IMG/VR virus record: IMGVR_UViG_2061766007_000327
DNA length: 64,000 nucleotides
Source of the DNA: an uncultured virus (IMG/VR IMGVR_UViG_2061766007_000327)
Lineage: Duplodnaviria > Heunggongvirae > Uroviricota > Caudoviricetes
Direction: 5' to 3' (one strand)
Position numbers and translations under genes: made by a program. The notes under the pieces were generated by a model that worked only from the letters and a program-made list of their open reading frames with translations, did not search any database and was not told where the DNA came from. Shown here piece after piece: positions 448 to 52,337 of the stretch; the first letter of the stretch is position 1; each line of letters begins with the position of its first letter.

Positions 448-1458
448 ATGAGATATGTTCTTGATGAGCAAGGGCGTCGTTTCCCGAGCCTTTGGAAAGC
501 CACGAAAGCCAATGGCGCAACATGTGGCGGAGCGTTACTAAAGAGGTTGAACAAAAAGGGTATTGTCAGGTCTGGAGGGCACACCTTCTATCTATATGAA
601 GATGACCAGCCCATAACTCCTACGACGACAAATGTGGTCGTGCAGAAGGACCCTACCATGGAGCGTTTGAGAAAACGTTATTCCGATTCTGAGATAGAGG
701 CCATCGCTAGGGGAGAGGGGATCGAACGTAGGATTATCGTTTTTCCGGAAATTCGGCTTACTGGTAAGCACCATAAGTTTGTAGTGATAAGCGACACCCA
801 CGTCGGCAGCGTCTATTCCCCGTATGAGTGGCATAATGTCGTTTCTGATTATGTTAATAATAATGGTATCGAAGCCGTCCTGCATTGCGGAGACCTTGTG
901 GAGGGGATGAAAATCCAGAGGATAGGCACACAGATATACGAATTGTCGGATATAGGATACGAGGCACAGAAAGCGAGAGCTGCGGAATTGTTATCAAAAT
1001 ACAAAGTTCCTATATATATGATCAGCGGAAACCACGATTTTTACTATCAAGAATATGCCGGGGCTAATATAATAAAGGCGCTATCCGACAGTTTGGATAA
1101 TCTGACATATATCGGGCACGATTCCGCAGATATAGATGTTGATGGTGCCACAATACGCCTTTTCCACGGAGGAGATGGCTCGAATTCCTACGCGGTTTCG
1201 TACCGGCTCCAGAAGTTATGCGAGGCGATTACTGGCGGAGAAAAACCGAATATCCTTATTGCCGGGCACGTCCATAAGTTCTGCTATATATTCGAACGCA
1301 ACATTCACGCGATCTCGGCTCCTTGTATGCAGATGCAGACCAACTTTATGAGAGGGAAGAAGTTGGCAGCGCATACGGGCTTCCTTGAATTAGAGTTCGA
1401 TGTGAACGACAAGAATATCTGTAACCTCGGTGTTAAATTCTTCCCTTTTTACGCTTAG
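448..1458 (+). CDS. calcineurin-like metallophosphoesterase
   Basis: DTH, GDLVEG, GNHD, H and GHVH metal-binding motifs. Confidence 0.85.
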   Translation: MRYVLDEQGRRFPSLWKATKANGATCGGALLKRLNKKGIVRSGGHTFYLYEDDQPITPTTTNVVVQKDPTMERLRKRYSDSEIEAIARGEGIERRIIVFPEIRLTGKHHKFVVISDTHVGSVYSPYEWHNVVSDYVNNNGIEAVLHCGDLVEGMKIQRIGTQIYELSDIGYEAQKARAAELLSKYKVPIYMISGNHDFYYQEYAGANIIKALSDSLDNLTYIGHDSADIDVDGATIRLFHGGDGSNSYAVSYRLQKLCEAITGGEKPNILIAGHVHKFCYIFERNIHAISAPCMQMQTNFMRGKKLAAHTGFLELEFDVNDKNICNLGVKFFPFYA

Positions 1459-35521: not shown

Positions 35522-35876
35522 GAAACTCCGGCACATAACCCTAGCAACCCAACTGATGCCGTTTATCTATGGCGGTTTTTATATTCTGTCTCTATTCCTT
35601 TATACGGTCGGCACGGAGGAGACGGCGAGACTCTGTGATACCCTCTTCTATGTATCGCCGATAGTCGTGGCAGAATTTCTTGTCCTGTCAAGGCTCTTGA
35701 GATTATGCAAGTGGCATCGCATAGCCTGTTGCGTCCCGCTGATCCCGCAAGTGATGTCTTTGATAGATTATTATATCATAGAATTCAGTGAGATTATCGT
35801 GCAGGTCGATATCTTCATCTATATGTCCTCCATTATCCTTCTCCTAATAGCCGCCTACAAAGTCTTCCTATGCTAA
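35415..35876 (+). CDS. multi-TM membrane protein (start uncertain)
   Basis: Four hydrophobic segments. Confidence 0.55.
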   Translation: MPARAGSDSTRRRHNCICICTVDKDPRRLDLEGLIKKLRHITLATQLMPFIYGGFYILSLFLYTVGTEETARLCDTLFYVSPIVVAEFLVLSRLLRLCKWHRIACCVPLIPQVMSLIDYYIIEFSEIIVQVDIFIYMSSIILLLIAAYKVFLC

Positions 35877-36149
35877 ACCCTAAAACCTACCTTGCCGAGA
35901 TCCTCGACTATTACAAGTACAAACTGGACAACAATCTCTGCACAATGGAAGAGATGAACTCGTTAGCCAAGACAATCCAAGAAAATATGGAAATTCAAGG
36001 AACGATTTCCGATTTTGCACAATTTTACAATCAATCGGAATCATCCATAAGGGCGACCATCTCGAGGAAGTTNNNNNNNNNNNNNNNNCTTCTACCCCTT
36101 CCATACCTTCGCCAGAATAGTGCCAGACAAGTGGCACAAAAAGAAATAG
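35870..36149 (+). CDS. putative HTH DNA-binding protein (gapped)
   Basis: ISDFAQFYNQSESSIRATISR is HTH-like; after the gap it reads FYPFHTFARIVPDKWHKKK* to 36149. Confidence 0.5.
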
Positions 36150-36259
36150 TTAGCATTAATATGTAGCAAACTACCGTCCGCTATTGCTTCTGCCGAACTT
36201 TGTATTGACGATAAGGCCTATCGCGATACAAAGTTTAACTTTTTAATGCTAACTAAATT

Positions 36260-37188
36260 ATGGCGGAAGATTCTAAAACGATAATTTTACCCGATAACCA
36301 GAATAATGGTTGGGGCAATGTGCCGTTCGCTATGACCCTACCCCTGTACGGTGGCTATGGATACGGGAACGGCTTTGGCAACGGACTGTTCGGCGGTGGC
36401 GGCTTTGGCGCCGGCATCCTCGGCGGGATCCTCGGAGGACTGATCCCCGGATTCTTCGGAGGCTGGGGCAACGGCTTCGGCTGGGGCGGAAATGGCAATG
36501 GAGGGGCAGNNNNNNNNNNNNNNNNNNNNNNNNNNNNNNNNNNNNNNNNNNNNCGGACGCCGATGTCAGGCTTCTGGCTACTACCCTTAACAGCGACATC
36601 GACAGCGTAAGGCTGGCCATCAACACTGTTCAAGGTGCAGTCCAGCAGGTTGGCTCTACCGTCGGTCTTACCGGACAGCAGGTCATCAACGCCATCCAGC
36701 AGGGTGATGCTGCCCTTGCCTCCCAGTTGTGTCAGTGCTGCTGCCAGACGCAACAGCAGATTATGGCGCAGGGATACGAGAACCAGATCCGCACCGTCGA
36801 GCAGACCAACACTCTCGGCAACGCTATCAACTTCAACGGACAGCGCAACGTCGACGCGATCGCAGACCTAAAGACCACGATGGTTAAGGAATTCTGCGAC
36901 CTCAAGGAGCGTGATATGCAGGAGAAGATCAATAGCCTGACGGCTAATAACACTCTCCTCAGAAGTCAGATCGATAATGCAGCACAGACCGCCACAATTG
37001 CTGGCCTTATTGCACCCGTAGCAAAAGAGGTCGATGACATCAAGTGCAAGATGCCTCAGACAGTTCCCGTCCAGTGGCCTCAGTTGACCGCCGTGAATAC
37101 AACTCCTTATGTGAGCGGAGGCTTCTATGGCAACAACTGGAACAATTTCGGCTGGGGCGGCTTCGGCGGTAACGGAATCGTTTTCTAA
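36260..37188 (+). CDS. Gly-rich membrane-segment plus coiled-coil protein with CQCCC motif (one gene across a gap)
   Basis: N-terminal G/F/W-rich hydrophobic region, then Q/N-rich heptads and LCQCCCQTQ. Confidence 0.7.
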
Positions 37189-38385: not shown

Positions 38386-38787
38386 ATGGCAAGATTAGAT
38401 TCTTACGACAGATTACCCGGCGGAATGCGGGAATACTTGTCTTTCAATGATTATCACTTCTCTAAGCCCATGTATATGTGGGCTGTAAGCATGATGAGGG
38501 ATAAAAACGGAAGCAAGGTCGAGCCGATGACAAAGGAGTCTGTGATGGAAATCCTAAAGCGGAACAATGTCGAAATCGAAAAAGACATGGGCTACGACGT
38601 GCCCTTCGTCTTTATGCGCAAAAAGACGGATTCTCTTGGCGGTTCCATCCCTGATGAGGCTCACCTAGCCATGGCGGTCAAGGAGTTCTTCACGGATAAG
38701 GACGGGTACGACACAATGGCATTTGATGAGTTTCTTACAAAACTCAATGCCCTTGGGATTCCCGTAGACTGGTCAAGTATGCTTTAG
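38386..38787 (+). CDS. hypothetical protein
   Basis: YHFSKPM...DKDGY...IPVDWSSML; member of the cassette. Confidence 0.65.
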   Translation: MARLDSYDRLPGGMREYLSFNDYHFSKPMYMWAVSMMRDKNGSKVEPMTKESVMEILKRNNVEIEKDMGYDVPFVFMRKKTDSLGGSIPDEAHLAMAVKEFFTDKDGYDTMAFDEFLTKLNALGIPVDWSSML

Positions 38788-39362
38788 TCGGCATAGCGGA
38801 AGGTGCAACCATGATGTATTTTTTGAGTCCCCTTTGCGCAACGGACAATAGCATACCGATAAAATCCGTCCGCCTCGGCACAATGAAGTGATTTGTAGTA
38901 GGTTTCATTTCCCGAACTATCGGTACAGATAACCGGACGGCTATACCTGCGATACAGTTCTTTCTTTATGGCCACTGCGTGTGGGTTTCTGGCATTCTCG
39001 CTTCTGCATACCCATCTCAAGTTTTCGGCTCTATTATCGTGCCTGACGGCGTTTATGTGGTCAACCTCTTTCCCGGGTTCCGGGAGGCCGTGAAAGGCGG
39101 AACAAACCAGAATGTGTGCGGTAATGCCTTTCACGAACTTATCTTTAGATAAGTGCAAAGATGGATATCCGCTCTGAGACAGGGACTGCCTCATAATATG
39201 CTCCTTGATTGTCCTGGTTGCGCCATAAACTGTCGGTACCATACGAGAAATAGCCTTTATCCTTCCAGTGTTAGAAGCTTGGTAATAACCTTCCCACCCA
39301 GGGATATCCTTCCAAACCTCGCCTGGCATGTCTTCAAGGGACAGATTTTGATACGGTAACAT
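38784..39362 (-). CDS. NUMOD4-HNH homing endonuclease
   Basis: EVWKDIPGWEGYYQASNTGRIK (NUMOD4), VDHINAVRHDNRAENLRW (HNH), C-terminal NUMOD1-like HTH. Confidence 0.9.
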   Translation of the reverse strand: MLPYQNLSLEDMPGEVWKDIPGWEGYYQASNTGRIKAISRMVPTVYGATRTIKEHIMRQSLSQSGYPSLHLSKDKFVKGITAHILVCSAFHGLPEPGKEVDHINAVRHDNRAENLRWVCRSENARNPHAVAIKKELYRRYSRPVICTDSSGNETYYKSLHCAEADGFYRYAIVRCAKGTQKIHHGCTFRYAD

Positions 39363-39467
39363 ATCGCTGATGATTTATAGTTAGCTGATGAAAATAAAGA
39401 GCGGAAGGCGCATCAGCTTCGCTTTTCGGAAGGTAGCTACTCCATTCCTATCCGCTCTACAAATATA
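39363..39467 (-). promoter_or_regulatory. promoter plus structured 5' leader of HNH gene 1
   Basis: TATATTTG (39467-39460), then stem AGAGCGGA/TCCGCTCT, two inner hairpins and two CATCAGC boxes. Confidence 0.7.
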
Positions 39468-45389: not shown

Positions 45390-46160
45390 TTAATTTTGCC
45401 TCCTGATTTCTTGAATCCACTTCGACAGCGTGCAAGCATTCATCTTGCAACCCTCACGGGTTGAAAATCCCGTCAGTCCCATCTCGTGGAATTCGTTAAA
45501 CTCTCGTAATATATCTTTTTGTAACCGGCCTTTCTGGACCTGCTTCTTGATCCAGCGGTAGCCGTCATTAGATTCACGCCAGGCACGGGCATCGTCAGCC
45601 TTTATCCTCGCCTGGACTGCTGTAGCGGCAGAGACATCGACGCCCTTATCATTACCGAGATGCTTGCGCCAATGCCCGGACTTGGACATAAAGCCGCCGT
45701 CCTTGGCAATCGCTTTCTTTCGCTCTTCAAGAGCCAGTTTCGTATTAATTCTGCCCATAATAGCCTGGCGTTCTGCAACCGCAAAGAGGACCGTAAGAAC
45801 GAACCTATCGGATGCAGGCACATCGCATATAACAATATTCCTTTCCCCGACAGCATCGAGGATTTCAAGAGCCTCTTGTACATTTCTCAAGCGATCAAAC
45901 TTAGAGATGCACAGAACATAGTTATTTTGCTTACACAATTCAATCGCCTCCCAAAGACCCTTACACTGTTTGAGCTTCGTCCCCGAAAACACATCCGTGA
46001 ACATCGCCACGGGGTCACGCCCCATAAACATCTTCGCAATCGCCTCCTGGGCAGACAATCCCAATCCGCTCCGACCCTGGCGGCCGGTAGATACACGCCT
46101 CCAAAGGACATATGGTCTTTGGTCGTGGAACGGAACTATTTCAACATTCTTCTTCGCCAT
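45390..46160 (-). CDS. serine recombinase (resolvase/invertase family)
   Basis: RVSTGRQ..SGLGL.AQ catalytic motif, SKFDRLR, AERQ...RINTKLAL. Confidence 0.85.
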   Translation of the reverse strand: MAKKNVEIVPFHDQRPYVLWRRVSTGRQGRSGLGLSAQEAIAKMFMGRDPVAMFTDVFSGTKLKQCKGLWEAIELCKQNNYVLCISKFDRLRNVQEALEILDAVGERNIVICDVPASDRFVLTVLFAVAERQAIMGRINTKLALEERKKAIAKDGGFMSKSGHWRKHLGNDKGVDVSAATAVQARIKADDARAWRESNDGYRWIKKQVQKGRLQKDILREFNEFHEMGLTGFSTREGCKMNACTLSKWIQEIRRQN

Positions 46161-46680
46161 AGTCTGATAAATATTGCCATTTGTATCCGTGGTGGGTCTT
46201 AAGTTTCCCCTTACAAACCTTGGAGATTTGATTCTTATTAAAGCCCCCCTCTCGCTTCGCCTCAGCTATGGACGACCAAATTTGTATCAACTGATTATCT
46301 TTGGTCAACTGTACCACCCGGAAAGATTTTGCAGCACCGTATCGCTTGCGTGAGATAGGATTCTTTTGGTTCTCACTTTGGTTACACCAGCGGAGATTAT
46401 CCGCTCGATTATTTCTACGATTAGTGTCGATGTGGTCGACAAATGGCTTATTATCGGGATTAGGGATGAAAGCTATCGCAACCAACCGCGCGACCCTACA
46501 ACTTTGAACAGTAGTCCCTTTACATAGGTGAATATAATCATAATCTTTCAAACTAACCCAGGGCGTCATAATCCTTGTCGCCTTTGTATGGTTGTAGTTA
46601 AGACTCCGAACTCTCCCGAGATTACTCACCTCGTATAAGCCTTCATAGCCCACAACTGGTTTCCAAATTTCTTTTTCCAT
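46141..46680 (-). CDS. NUMOD4-HNH homing endonuclease
   Basis: EIWKPVVGYEGLYEVSNLGRVRS, VDHIDTNRRNNRADNLRW, NUMOD1 tail; start MEKEIW. Confidence 0.9.
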   Translation of the reverse strand: MEKEIWKPVVGYEGLYEVSNLGRVRSLNYNHTKATRIMTPWVSLKDYDYIHLCKGTTVQSCRVARLVAIAFIPNPDNKPFVDHIDTNRRNNRADNLRWCNQSENQKNPISRKRYGAAKSFRVVQLTKDNQLIQIWSSIAEAKREGGFNKNQISKVCKGKLKTHHGYKWQYLSDYGEEEC

Positions 46681-46811
46681 TGAACTGATGTTATCAATTA
46701 TACTGATGAAAAAGAAAGCAGGAAGGGCCATCAGTTTACCTTTGTCGCGAGGGGATCAAGTCTCGCTATCCTGCTTCTGTAAATATAGTCAGAAACATTT
46801 GAATATGCAAA
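46681..46811 (-). promoter_or_regulatory. promoter plus structured 5' leader of HNH gene 2
   Basis: TTTG-N20-TATATTTA, stem AAGCAGGA/TCCTGCTT, two inner hairpins, two CATCAGT boxes. Confidence 0.7.
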
Positions 46812-51036: not shown

Positions 51037-51270
51037 TCATGACTCAGACACCTCCGTGATGTAATCATTGGCATCCTCCATGCTTGACTGCGCATCCTCC
51101 ATTGTAGAGATAAACTCTTCCATCTGCTCGCCCCTCTCACTGTCTTGGATGCCCTCGGGCAGATTGTCATAAGCATCCTGCTCCTCGTCGATAACCTCCT
51201 GCAGTCGATCCATCAGACCGACCAATTCATCGCTGATTTTCTCAAGCTCTTTCCTTCTTTGTTTGTTCAT
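51037..51270 (-). CDS. highly acidic helical protein
   Basis: MNKQRRK...EEQDAYDNLPEGIQDSERGEQMEE. Confidence 0.7.
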   Translation of the reverse strand: MNKQRRKELEKISDELVGLMDRLQEVIDEEQDAYDNLPEGIQDSERGEQMEEFISTMEDAQSSMEDANDYITEVSES

Positions 51271-51617
51271 GATTAAAAGTATTTAAGATTAAACCTCCGG
51301 CAAGACAGAACATCAGAAAGTTCGTAGGCTCGCCCCAATATAGTCCAAGCGCCACTGCCGTGGCTGCTAGGATAAGTTTCACTTTAGCCATCGCTCTTTG
51401 ATTGTTATAACATTCCACTTGAACTCCACCTCCGCAATCTGCTCGCGGATGCATCGNNNNNNNNNNTCCGACCTCACTAAGCCACTCTCCTGAGTATATT
51501 TTGTAGCCTTTCTCGAAGCGGTCTACCTCGGCATACTTGCGCCCGGTCTGCTTATCCCTAAACAGCCAGAACTTGCCGTACGGGTTCTGGCATTCCGTGA
51601 TGATGATTGTTGTCATA

Positions 51618-52337
51618 TCAATGTGCTTCAAATAAGATTGTTTCACCATTCTTTGCGCCCCAACAACCAGTCCATGCCTCGGCGCACTCTTCGCATGAGC
51701 CAGGACACATAAACTGCTTATCGGTGCAGTGCGGTCCTTTAGTCCCGTCCGCCCATAGAGGACTGCTCACAGGCAGGTTGTACGGATTCTCGAATTCCGC
51801 TCCGCGCCAATCCGAAAAGATGATGTGCAGGTTCTTAGGCAACGGTCCTACATTGGTTATGTACTCATTAACAAGATCGTACATCTTCGTGAATGCCAGA
51901 AACTCGCATGTCGGTGTTTGCTCGGCAATGGTTACCATCGCTTCAAGATACGGATGACTGATAATGTCCGCACCGACATGCCATCTAAAGAATCGCAGAT
52001 ACTTGACTGCCTTGAAAATCTCACCGAAATACTTCTGCGGGTCTTGGTGGAATATCGCGCTGTTGTTAGCCCTGCTCTTCTGCACTGTCTTCTGGAAGCA
52101 AACGTTCCTTACATCATAACAACCCCTCGCACAAACCTTGCAGTTCCCGCAGTCGGCCACCGGAATCATACTCACTGAAGGTACAAGCGCACCGGTCTTG
52201 CGGTTGCCATAACTCAACTTGACGTGAGCGTTCTCCACGTCAACTTCGTTTCTAAATTCCAACATCTGCTGAACTCTTCGCTTGATCGCATCAGCGCTGA
52301 ACTCTTTGTAATTGTGCTTAAACTCTGTCTTTGCCAT
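51618..52337 (-). CDS. GP88-like phage protein (Cys-rich)
   Basis: GNRKTG, C..C..C..GCY, FRWHVGADI, AFTK, C-terminal CPGSCEEC. Confidence 0.7.
   Translation of the reverse strand: MAKTEFKHNYKEFSADAIKRRVQQMLEFRNEVDVENAHVKLSYGNRKTGALVPSVSMIPVADCGNCKVCARGCYDVRNVCFQKTVQKSRANNSAIFHQDPQKYFGEIFKAVKYLRFFRWHVGADIISHPYLEAMVTIAEQTPTCEFLAFTKMYDLVNEYITNVGPLPKNLHIIFSDWRGAEFENPYNLPVSSPLWADGTKGPHCTDKQFMCPGSCEECAEAWTGCWGAKNGETILFEAH

What the first reader, a model, noticed from the sequence alone, without database searches (positions are those of the whole stretch)
39360..39467. Conserved covarying leader RNA (three-way junction plus switchable pseudoknot) upstream of HNH endonuclease 1
Seen (minus strand): TATATTTG promoter, then P1 AGAGCGGA/UCCGCUCU enclosing P2 (GGAAUGG..CCUUCC) and P3 (GCG-AAGCUGAUG-CGC). 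A U tract follows, then two CAUCAGC boxes, the second ending 3 nt before AUG. The P3 loop GCUGAUG is exactly complementary to both boxes. The same architecture precedes the divergent HNH gene at 46680, with compensatory changes. Established: phage homing endonucleases such as T4 I-TevI are kept low by RNA structures at their start sites. Inference: a portable cis-regulatory RNA that travels with NUMOD4-HNH genes and toggles between the distal box and the start-proximal box. I cannot match it to a named family.
Basis: partly seen in the sequence, partly recalled or inferred. Interest (0 to 1): 0.8.

Follow-up and report, generated by a model that had tools for sequence, protein, structure and literature searches.

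The report
int-alpA-type leader with self-pairing loop
Two selfish nuclease genes of this phage each start with a small three-armed RNA, a variant of a catalogued but unexplained family, in which one loop matches two sites next to the start codon and another loop matches itself, suggesting that the RNA pairs with a second copy of itself to turn down protein synthesis.

Summary
Both window copies (39360-39467 and 46678-46787, minus strand) precede NUMOD4-HNH genes. The leader is common in tailed phages whose promoters are of the Bacteroidota type. Helices covary. The P3 loop varies (65 distinct 7-nt seeds), and two downstream boxes follow it: 38 of 43 seeds, then 18 of 26 in an automatic second set, against 3-5% for mismatched pairs. 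It is not a new family. Copy 1 scores 30.7 bits on Rfam int-alpA (RF02996, cut-off 35.8), and true int-alpA members share the junction, loops and boxes; there box 2 is the Shine-Dalgarno region. It is not HNH-specific either. Best model (inferred, about 0.5): box 1 parks the RNA's own loop, so translation is on. A second leader docks by a P2-P2 kiss and puts its loop on box 2, so translation is off. That would be RNA-only feedback on leader concentration. No expression data were obtained. Earlier unchecked notes of this scan report int-alpA-type leaders in other genomes.

The parts
39460..39467 (-). Bacteroidota -7 promoter box (TAnnTTTG type), copy 1
   Evidence: consensus from PMC7366714 passage; start site not mapped
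39398..39458 (-). three-way-junction leader, copy 1: P1 39451-39458/39398-39405, UA junction 39449-39450, P2, GAAAA junction 39423-39427, P3
   Evidence: int-alpA 30.7 bits, E 1.2e-4
39434..39441 (-). P2 loop AG + UAGCUA, self-complementary hexamer; inferred kissing (dimer) loop
39411..39419 (-). P3 loop AA + seed GCUGAUG
39391..39397 (-). U-rich linker between P1 and box 1
39384..39390 (-). box 1, CAUCAGC; inferred cis parking site for the P3 loop
39366..39372 (-). box 2, CAUCAGC, ends 3 nt before the AUG; on the initiation region
38784..39362 (-). NUMOD4-HNH_3-I-HmuI-like endonuclease 1, 192 aa
46780..46787 (-). promoter box of copy 2 (TATATTTA, one mismatch to the consensus)
46715..46777 (-). 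three-way-junction leader, copy 2; P2 loop 46752-46761 with a GAUC core, P3 loop 46729-46737 with seed ACUGAUG
   Evidence: no int-alpA match
46702..46708 (-). box 1 of copy 2, CAUCAGU
46684..46690 (-). box 2 of copy 2, CAUCAGU, 3 nt before the AUG at 46680
46141..46680 (-). NUMOD4-HNH_3-I-HmuI-like endonuclease 2 (about 35% identical to endonuclease 1; start at 46680 inferred from the leader, the ORF caller starts at 46731)

Best explanation
It is the 5' leader of the nuclease mRNA, a long-P2 branch of the int-alpA RNA family, and it limits translation by RNA-RNA pairing. Shown by comparison: the three-way junction, the P3-loop seed that covaries with two boxes, and a palindrome in the P2 loop that covaries within itself. 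Inferred: transcription starts at the base of P1. The RNA's own P3 loop first meets box 1 and forms a pseudoknot there, which ends about 21 nt before the AUG and leaves the initiation region free, so a lone transcript is translated. As leaders accumulate (other mRNAs, or short leader pieces lacking box 1), two of them kiss through their self-complementary P2 loops. This places a second P3 loop beside box 2, 0-9 nt before the AUG in most members, and blocks ribosome loading. The result is a protein-free negative feedback that allows an early burst of a potentially toxic protein and then caps it. Palindrome and seed form a two-part address that keeps several copies in one genome apart. In Shine-Dalgarno-using hosts the seed must be an anti-SD; in Bacteroidota, which lack SD sequences, it is free to diverge.
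For: Helices: 86% of 713 cells paired, 150 double changes against 51 in shuffles, slid controls 45-56%. Seed-box pairing: 38 of 43 seeds have two boxes against 83 of 1806 crossed pairs; automatic second set 18 of 26 against 22 of 650. G-U outnumbers A-C 18 to 2 at seed positions 1-6, p 4e-4, as expected for pairing on the mRNA strand. Box 1 starts 15.3 +/- 1.4 nt after the junction (15.2 +/- 1.5), and is as strong as or stronger than box 2 in 36 of 43. Median distance to AUG: 4 nt from box 2, 21 nt from box 1. P2 loop: two scans that only required a difference from AGUAGCUA at loop position 4 or 5 gave 60 matches, 57 genuine; 56 of 57 have a 4-nt palindrome at positions 4-7 (CAUG 26, GGCC 24, GAUC 5, AAUU 1), 41 a full Watson-Crick hexamer. 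28 of 28 model hits in multi-copy phage contigs have a central palindrome. In true int-alpA hits 34 of 47 P2 loops hold a palindrome and 9 more are GACG tetraloops (counted by me from its table), a loop known to make loop-loop contacts in murine leukaemia virus RNA (PMC5874298 passages). 18 of 23 int-alpA loop cores have two complementary sites before the start codon, and 22 of 23 cores are anti-SD-like. The conserved core stays while the downstream protein family changes, which argues against the gene product as ligand. Precedent for a leader acting in trans on its own read-through mRNA: IsrK and P4 CI (PMC4825925 abstract and passages).
Against: Nothing here shows transcription, dimer formation or the sign of regulation; the RNA runs laid were contigs at depth 2-15 and decide nothing. 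The 57 palindromic loops are related sequences: they reduce to five distinct cores, four palindromic. The G-U excess did not repeat in the second set (7 against 4, p 0.55). Some palindromes are weak (UAAUUA -0.4, UGAUCC -3.4 kcal/mol as free duplexes), including window copy 2. A full-length partner would have its own loop parked on its own box 1, so the model needs either short leaders or a loop swap; the tail after P1 holds 6 or more U in 8 nt in only 12 of 43 members, so no clear terminator makes short leaders. 5 of 43 and 8 of 26 seeds failed the two-box test (some by mis-parsing). No co-resident pair shared a seed (pairs read by eye), but with 65 seeds that is expected by chance.
Confidence: 0.5

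Rival explanations
1. Purely cis toggle: one P3 loop alternates between box 1 and box 2 on the same molecule, and the ratio sets a low fixed translation rate, perhaps shifted by a host protein or ribosome. The P2 loop has some other role.
For: Fixed distance of box 1 and near-equal strength of the boxes (19 of 43 equal); T4 endonucleases are held down by cis hairpins over the RBS (PMC2988022 passages).
Against: Does not explain a P2 loop that changes sequence yet stays self-complementary; no signal that would drive the toggle is apparent.
Confidence: 0.25
2. Same parts, opposite sign: the monomer is off (own loop on box 2), and dimerisation or a short trans leader frees box 2, as IsrK activates its own mRNA.
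For: IsrK precedent; box 2 is stronger than box 1 in 7 of 43 members.
Against: Box 1 is made first, is nearer, and is as strong or stronger in 36 of 43; positive feedback on a nuclease seems costly (inference).
Confidence: 0.1
3. The junction binds a metabolite, ion or host protein (riboswitch-like) that moves the P3 loop between boxes.
For: Junction bases UA and GAHA are nearly invariant, across phyla (record titles).
Against: Downstream genes share no metabolic theme; conserved junction bases are equally expected for a tertiary fold.
Confidence: 0.08
4. DNA-level sites: the boxes are direct-repeat operators and the palindrome a methylation or dimeric-protein site; the nuclease represses its own promoter as I-TevI does.
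For: I-TevI autorepression; the 4-nt cores are typical restriction or methylation sites (recalled).
Against: Three covarying helices; G-U bias in the first set; near-identical seeds before unrelated proteins in the same genomic slot (window copy 1 and L312); box 2 is the SD region in proteobacterial members.
Confidence: 0.05
5. A self-cleaving ribozyme.
For: Three-way junction plus pseudoknot is a ribozyme-like shape (recalled).
Against: No Rfam ribozyme matched at gathering or E-value level; the CUGAUG text is a variable seed, not a conserved core.
Confidence: 0.02

Closest known systems
int-alpA RNA motif, Rfam RF02996 (typed Gene; sRNA); by my recollection one of the 224 candidates of Weinberg et al. 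2017 (PMC5737381), whose main text does not name it and whose supplement could not be read
   Same: P1-UA-P2-GAAA-P3 junction, P2 loops with AGCU, GAUC or GGCC cores, two unpaired bases plus a seed in the P3 loop, a complementary box about 6-10 nt after P1 (inside the Rfam model) and a second site near the start codon; mobile-element setting.
   Different: Longer P2 (about 6 bp against 2-4), seed free of the anti-SD constraint with 65 variants, 7-bp boxes, Bacteroidota promoter, mostly nuclease and antirepressor genes instead of the ORF between int and alpA. Scores below the Rfam cut-off: copy 1 30.7 against 35.8; copy 2 none; none of 20 homologous loci matched; only the control int-alpA locus did, of 20.
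IsrK of Gifsy-1 and P4 CI / P1 C4 antisense RNAs (RF01394, RF01695)
   Same: An RNA from the leader pairs with targets in its own transcript, also in trans (PMC4825925 passages).
   Different: C4 hits have a long closing stem and another junction and did not match the model; IsrK activates; no palindromic loop is described in the passages I read.
Retroviral dimerisation loops (HIV-1 DIS, ALV L3, MuLV GACG loops)
   Same: Hairpin loop with a palindromic hexamer flanked by unpaired bases; GACG tetraloops in some int-alpA members (PMC5874298 passages).
   Different: Analogy only, no homology; those pair viral genomes for packaging, this one sits in a bacterial-type mRNA leader.
RBS-sequestering hairpins of T4 homing endonucleases (I-TevI, segB, mobE)
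   Same: RNA structure at the start of a phage endonuclease gene that limits translation (PMC2988022 passages).
   Different: Those are single hairpins released by a late promoter; here a junction with a variable loop, two boxes and its own promoter.

Membership tests
int-alpA RF02996 | Score at or above the Rfam gathering cut-off (35.8 bits) | tested here: not met
   copy 1 30.7 bits, E 1.2e-4; copy 2 no match; none at gathering in the window
int-alpA RF02996 | Three-way junction with UAG, CGAAAA and CU-type junction strands | tested here: met
   alignment
int-alpA RF02996 | Short P2 (about 4 bp, 5-nt loop) | tested here: not met
   P2 is about 6 bp with an 8-10 nt loop; short-P2 forms before NUMOD4-HNH genes exist (L185, L192) but also stay below the cut-off
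int-alpA RF02996 | 3' tail complementary to the P3 loop | tested here: met
   seen in true members and in this branch; whether the original authors drew this pairing I could not see
int-alpA RF02996 | Position between an integrase and an alpA gene | tested here: not met
   true for L543 and L550; the window copies precede HNH genes among phage accessory genes
C4 antisense RNA RF01695 / isrK RF01394 | Match to the model; long closing stem | tested here: not met
Self-cleaving ribozymes in Rfam | Conserved catalytic core, model match | tested here: not met
Kissing-loop dimerisation signals | Self-complementary loop that keeps its symmetry when the sequence changes | tested here: met
   56 of 57, 28 of 28, 34 of 47 plus 9 GACG loops in int-alpA
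Kissing-loop dimerisation signals | Dimer formation shown in vitro or in cells | not testable with these tools
   no tool folds RNA dimers with loop-loop pairs or gives probing data

The most novel reading that the evidence does not exclude
int-alpA and this Bacteroidota-phage branch form a cross-phylum class of mRNA leaders that measure their own concentration: two leaders dimerise through palindromic kissing loops, and the dimer delivers a second guide loop onto the ribosome loading site. It would be protein-free translational autoregulation with a programmable two-part address (at least six palindromes, at least 65 seeds), used by selfish nucleases, antirepressors and satellite genes.
Probability: 0.4. 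Interest if true: 0.85.

Novelty: new variant of a known kind. Interest (0 to 1): 0.6.

Why it matters
It gives an orphan Rfam family a concrete, cheaply testable mechanism and extends it to a large branch that the Rfam model misses. If the dimer model holds, it is a form of gene control (concentration sensing by mRNA-leader homodimerisation) for which I found no bacterial precedent in the papers I opened; I ran no search aimed at that question. It would explain how phages carry several nuclease genes without harm and would supply naturally orthogonal translational regulators for Bacteroides, where SD-based parts do not work. If only the cis toggle holds, it is a tidy but more ordinary throttle. 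This window is one more example of a family that the scan has met in at least eight other findings.

Tried and rejected
Rfam at gathering level: nothing in the window. Loose loop-box-box pattern in viral contigs: 121 stretches, none of the eight printed looked like a homologue; the seed is too variable for that approach. A pattern for the ACUU-type P2 loop found 0 because my gap was too short. Hammerhead reading of CUGAUGA on the plus strand: rejected by eye, the text is the variable seed. C4/IsrK membership: rejected. FopS sRNAs of Bacteroides: seen only in a search listing, not compared. Model search of cell genomes: 3 of 151 in the order of G003 (two weak, AT-rich, not followed up) and 2 of 151 in the class of G001; only 25 candidates were scored per genome, so this is not absence. 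int-alpA was not found in five genomes holding long-P2 copies nor in E. coli Sakai. RNA runs: four metatranscriptome contig sets covered scattered pieces of L355 at depth 2-15, one beginning upstream of the promoter; no start, end or level can be read. Intrinsic terminator after P1: not conserved. Insulation of co-resident copies: compatible, not significant. Literature: 'int-alpA' gave 2 papers, one listing it in a table, one using the words for gene order; 'RF02996' gave 0; two further searches on NUMOD4/HNH and structured RNA listed no description of this motif (listings only). Fremin 2023 (PMC10690425) lists four candidates within 25 bp of NUMOD4 genes; the two I looked up are aquatic, and the alignments (zip and pdf files) were unreadable, so the motif may be among its or Fremin 2021's (PMC8040213) unnamed candidates. 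Rows dropped before counts: 6 unparsed and 9 mis-parsed before (83 rows, 43 seeds kept; 11 seeds set by hand), 3 chance matches, 1 unparsed, 1. No protein fold or complex job was run.

Full report
Observation. The loop-box-box pattern occurs twice against 0.01 expected. Both downstream ORFs are NUMOD4 + HNH_3 + I-HmuI-like proteins, 35% identical. A covariance model later found exactly these two copies in the window (both were in its training set). Energy alone does not give the junction for copy 1, so the fold had to be tested by comparison. No whole genome is held for the window. I read it as part of a tailed phage of a Bacteroidota host from the promoter boxes and the relatives; I annotated only eight of its ORFs.

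Homologues. The closest nuclease relatives carry the same leader with other loop seeds and matching boxes (L123, L124, L128). A promoter-free pattern gave 15 stretches in the species-representative genomes, titled Bacteroidota, Gammaproteobacteria, Planctomycetota and others; some bins may be contaminated and one or two matches look like chance. A cultured phage, Parabacteroides phage PD491P1, has it before a gene annotated as I-HmuI-like. On an alignment of 42 sequences, 86% of 713 cells pair and 150 show double changes against 51 in shuffles; slid controls pair at 45-56%. The model matched upstream of 24 of 87 viral and 7 of 80 metagenomic NUMOD4-HNH loci, so most such genes lack it or lie on short contigs. 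It is not tied to one protein family: of 28 copies in 11 multi-copy phage contigs, 10 precede HNH_3 proteins (8 with NUMOD4), and others GIY-YIG, T5orf172, DUF723, two antirepressors, two HTH proteins and a terminase; 9 had no Pfam match. Elsewhere it precedes an integrase and a DUF6291 protein. In L312 the slot between the same two neighbours as in the window holds an unrelated protein behind a leader with a near-identical seed, and in L348 these neighbours are adjacent with no cassette between them (neighbours only 26-37% identical). This fits a portable promoter-leader-gene cassette.

P3 loop and boxes. The P3 loop is mostly 9 nt: two unpaired bases, usually AA, and a 7-nt seed (31 of 43). 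38 of 43 distinct seeds have two complementary boxes, against 83 of 1806 crossed pairs (11 seeds set by hand, 15 rows dropped as unparsed or mis-parsed). A fully automatic run on a second set gave 18 of 26 against 22 of 650, and 65 seeds in all. Departures from Watson-Crick favour G-U over A-C, 18 to 2 at seed positions 1-6, but only 7 to 4 in the second set. Box 1 begins 15.3 +/- 1.4 nt after the junction; the boxes are about 17 nt apart; box 1 ends a median 21 nt and box 2 a median 4 nt before the AUG. The tail after P1 is pyrimidine-rich but not a steady U run. Bacteroidetes lack SD sequences and use adenines at -3, -6 and -11 to -15 (PMC7366714 passage; PMC6847099 and PMC7797042 abstract starts); box 2 lies in that zone.

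P2 loop. The common loop AG-UAGCUA ends in a palindrome, and the few variants I first saw did too. To test this without bias I scanned for members whose loop differs at position 4 or 5 and left the rest free. Of 60 matches 57 were genuine by P1 and P2 pairing, and 56 of these have a 4-nt palindrome at positions 4-7: CAUG 26, GGCC 24, GAUC 5, AAUU 1. These are related sequences and reduce to five cores, four palindromic, where chance is 1 in 16 each; going from AGCU to GAUC needs four changes. All 28 model hits in multi-copy contigs have a central palindrome, adding UGCA (partly the same loci, and five registers were allowed). A loop that changes sequence yet keeps pairing with itself is the mark of a kissing homodimer, as in retroviral dimer signals (PMC5874298 passages).

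Family. Copy 1 scores 30.7 bits on int-alpA, under the 35.8 cut-off. I fetched true int-alpA hits and found the same junction, a short P2 and the same loop cores: 34 of 47 palindromic, 9 GACG tetraloops, 4 neither. 18 of 23 distinct P3 cores have two complementary sites before the start codon, the second usually 4-13 nt from it, and 22 of 23 are anti-SD-like (sites as short as 4 bp were counted and no null was run). Two inspected members sit after an integrase-like ORF, before an ORF (no Pfam family for the one scanned) that is followed by alpA. The finding is therefore a long-P2, SD-independent branch of int-alpA that fails the Rfam score, not a new family. C4 and IsrK are functional analogues only. 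I could not read the Weinberg 2017 supplement, nor the alignment files of Fremin 2021 and 2023, so what was already drawn for int-alpA, and whether this branch is among unnamed candidates, stays open.

Mechanism. One loop and two equal boxes is odd for a cis switch but natural for a dimer with two loops. I infer that the transcript's own loop parks on box 1, outside the ribosome's landing zone, and that a second leader, held by the P2 kiss, covers box 2. Output would then fall as leader RNA builds up. In the window the two copies have seeds that could cross-pair (-7.7 and -6.8 kcal/mol) but different palindromes that cannot kiss; G756 shows the same pattern. Two cases are an anecdote. Weak points: no expression data, weak palindromes in some members, no clear source of short leaders, and an unknown sign. 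I give 0.85 to control of translation initiation by loop-box pairing, and 0.5 to the dimer version.

Earlier notes. After reaching these readings I found eight unchecked notes of this scan on int-alpA-type leaders in other genomes; one mentions a loop that matches itself. They agree but are not independent evidence, and they show the family is met often. Searches by sequence and by a first set of words showed nothing.

Verdict. Real, well supported as a structure, a new variant of a catalogued family of untested function, with a specific and testable mechanism. Interest 0.6.

Noticed in passing
L185:1406-1504, L192:1415-1516: Short-P2 leaders (int-alpA-like P2 with an AGCU core) before NUMOD4-HNH genes, apparently with one box; a bridge between the Rfam form and the long-P2 form, yet below the Rfam cut-off.
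   Followed up: partly
L426:308-396 and 529-611 (minus): A Gallibacterium prophage-like locus holds C4 and isrK RNAs above cut-off about 2 kb from a long-P2 leader: three RNA control elements in one element.
   Followed up: no
L429:819-2222 and 2132-2216: The leader precedes a tyrosine integrase whose 3' end overlaps a tRNA on the other strand, probably the integration site.
   Followed up: no
L599, L601, L596 (G765, G767, G766): The leader also precedes phage antirepressors (Bro-N/ANT, AntA/ANT) and a terminase-like gene, so it may touch the lysis-lysogeny decision, as C4 does by my recollection.
   Followed up: partly
window 38386-38787 (+) and 38784-39362 (-): The DUF7841 gene and endonuclease 1 converge with overlapping stop codons; the DUF7841 protein is 99% identical to that of L123 while the two endonucleases are 47% identical, pointing to recent exchange of the nuclease ORF.
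   Followed up: partly
window 45390-46160 (-): A resolvase gene overlaps the end of endonuclease 2; L240 and L260 also have a resolvase right after a NUMOD4-HNH gene.
   Followed up: no
window 35870-36753 and 51242-51649: ORFs here translate with runs of X, so the window has masked or unknown bases.
   Followed up: no
L355:1550-1607: One RNA-run contig (X9, 81 nt, depth 2) folds back at 1607, just past the start codon; probably a cDNA artefact.
   Followed up: no
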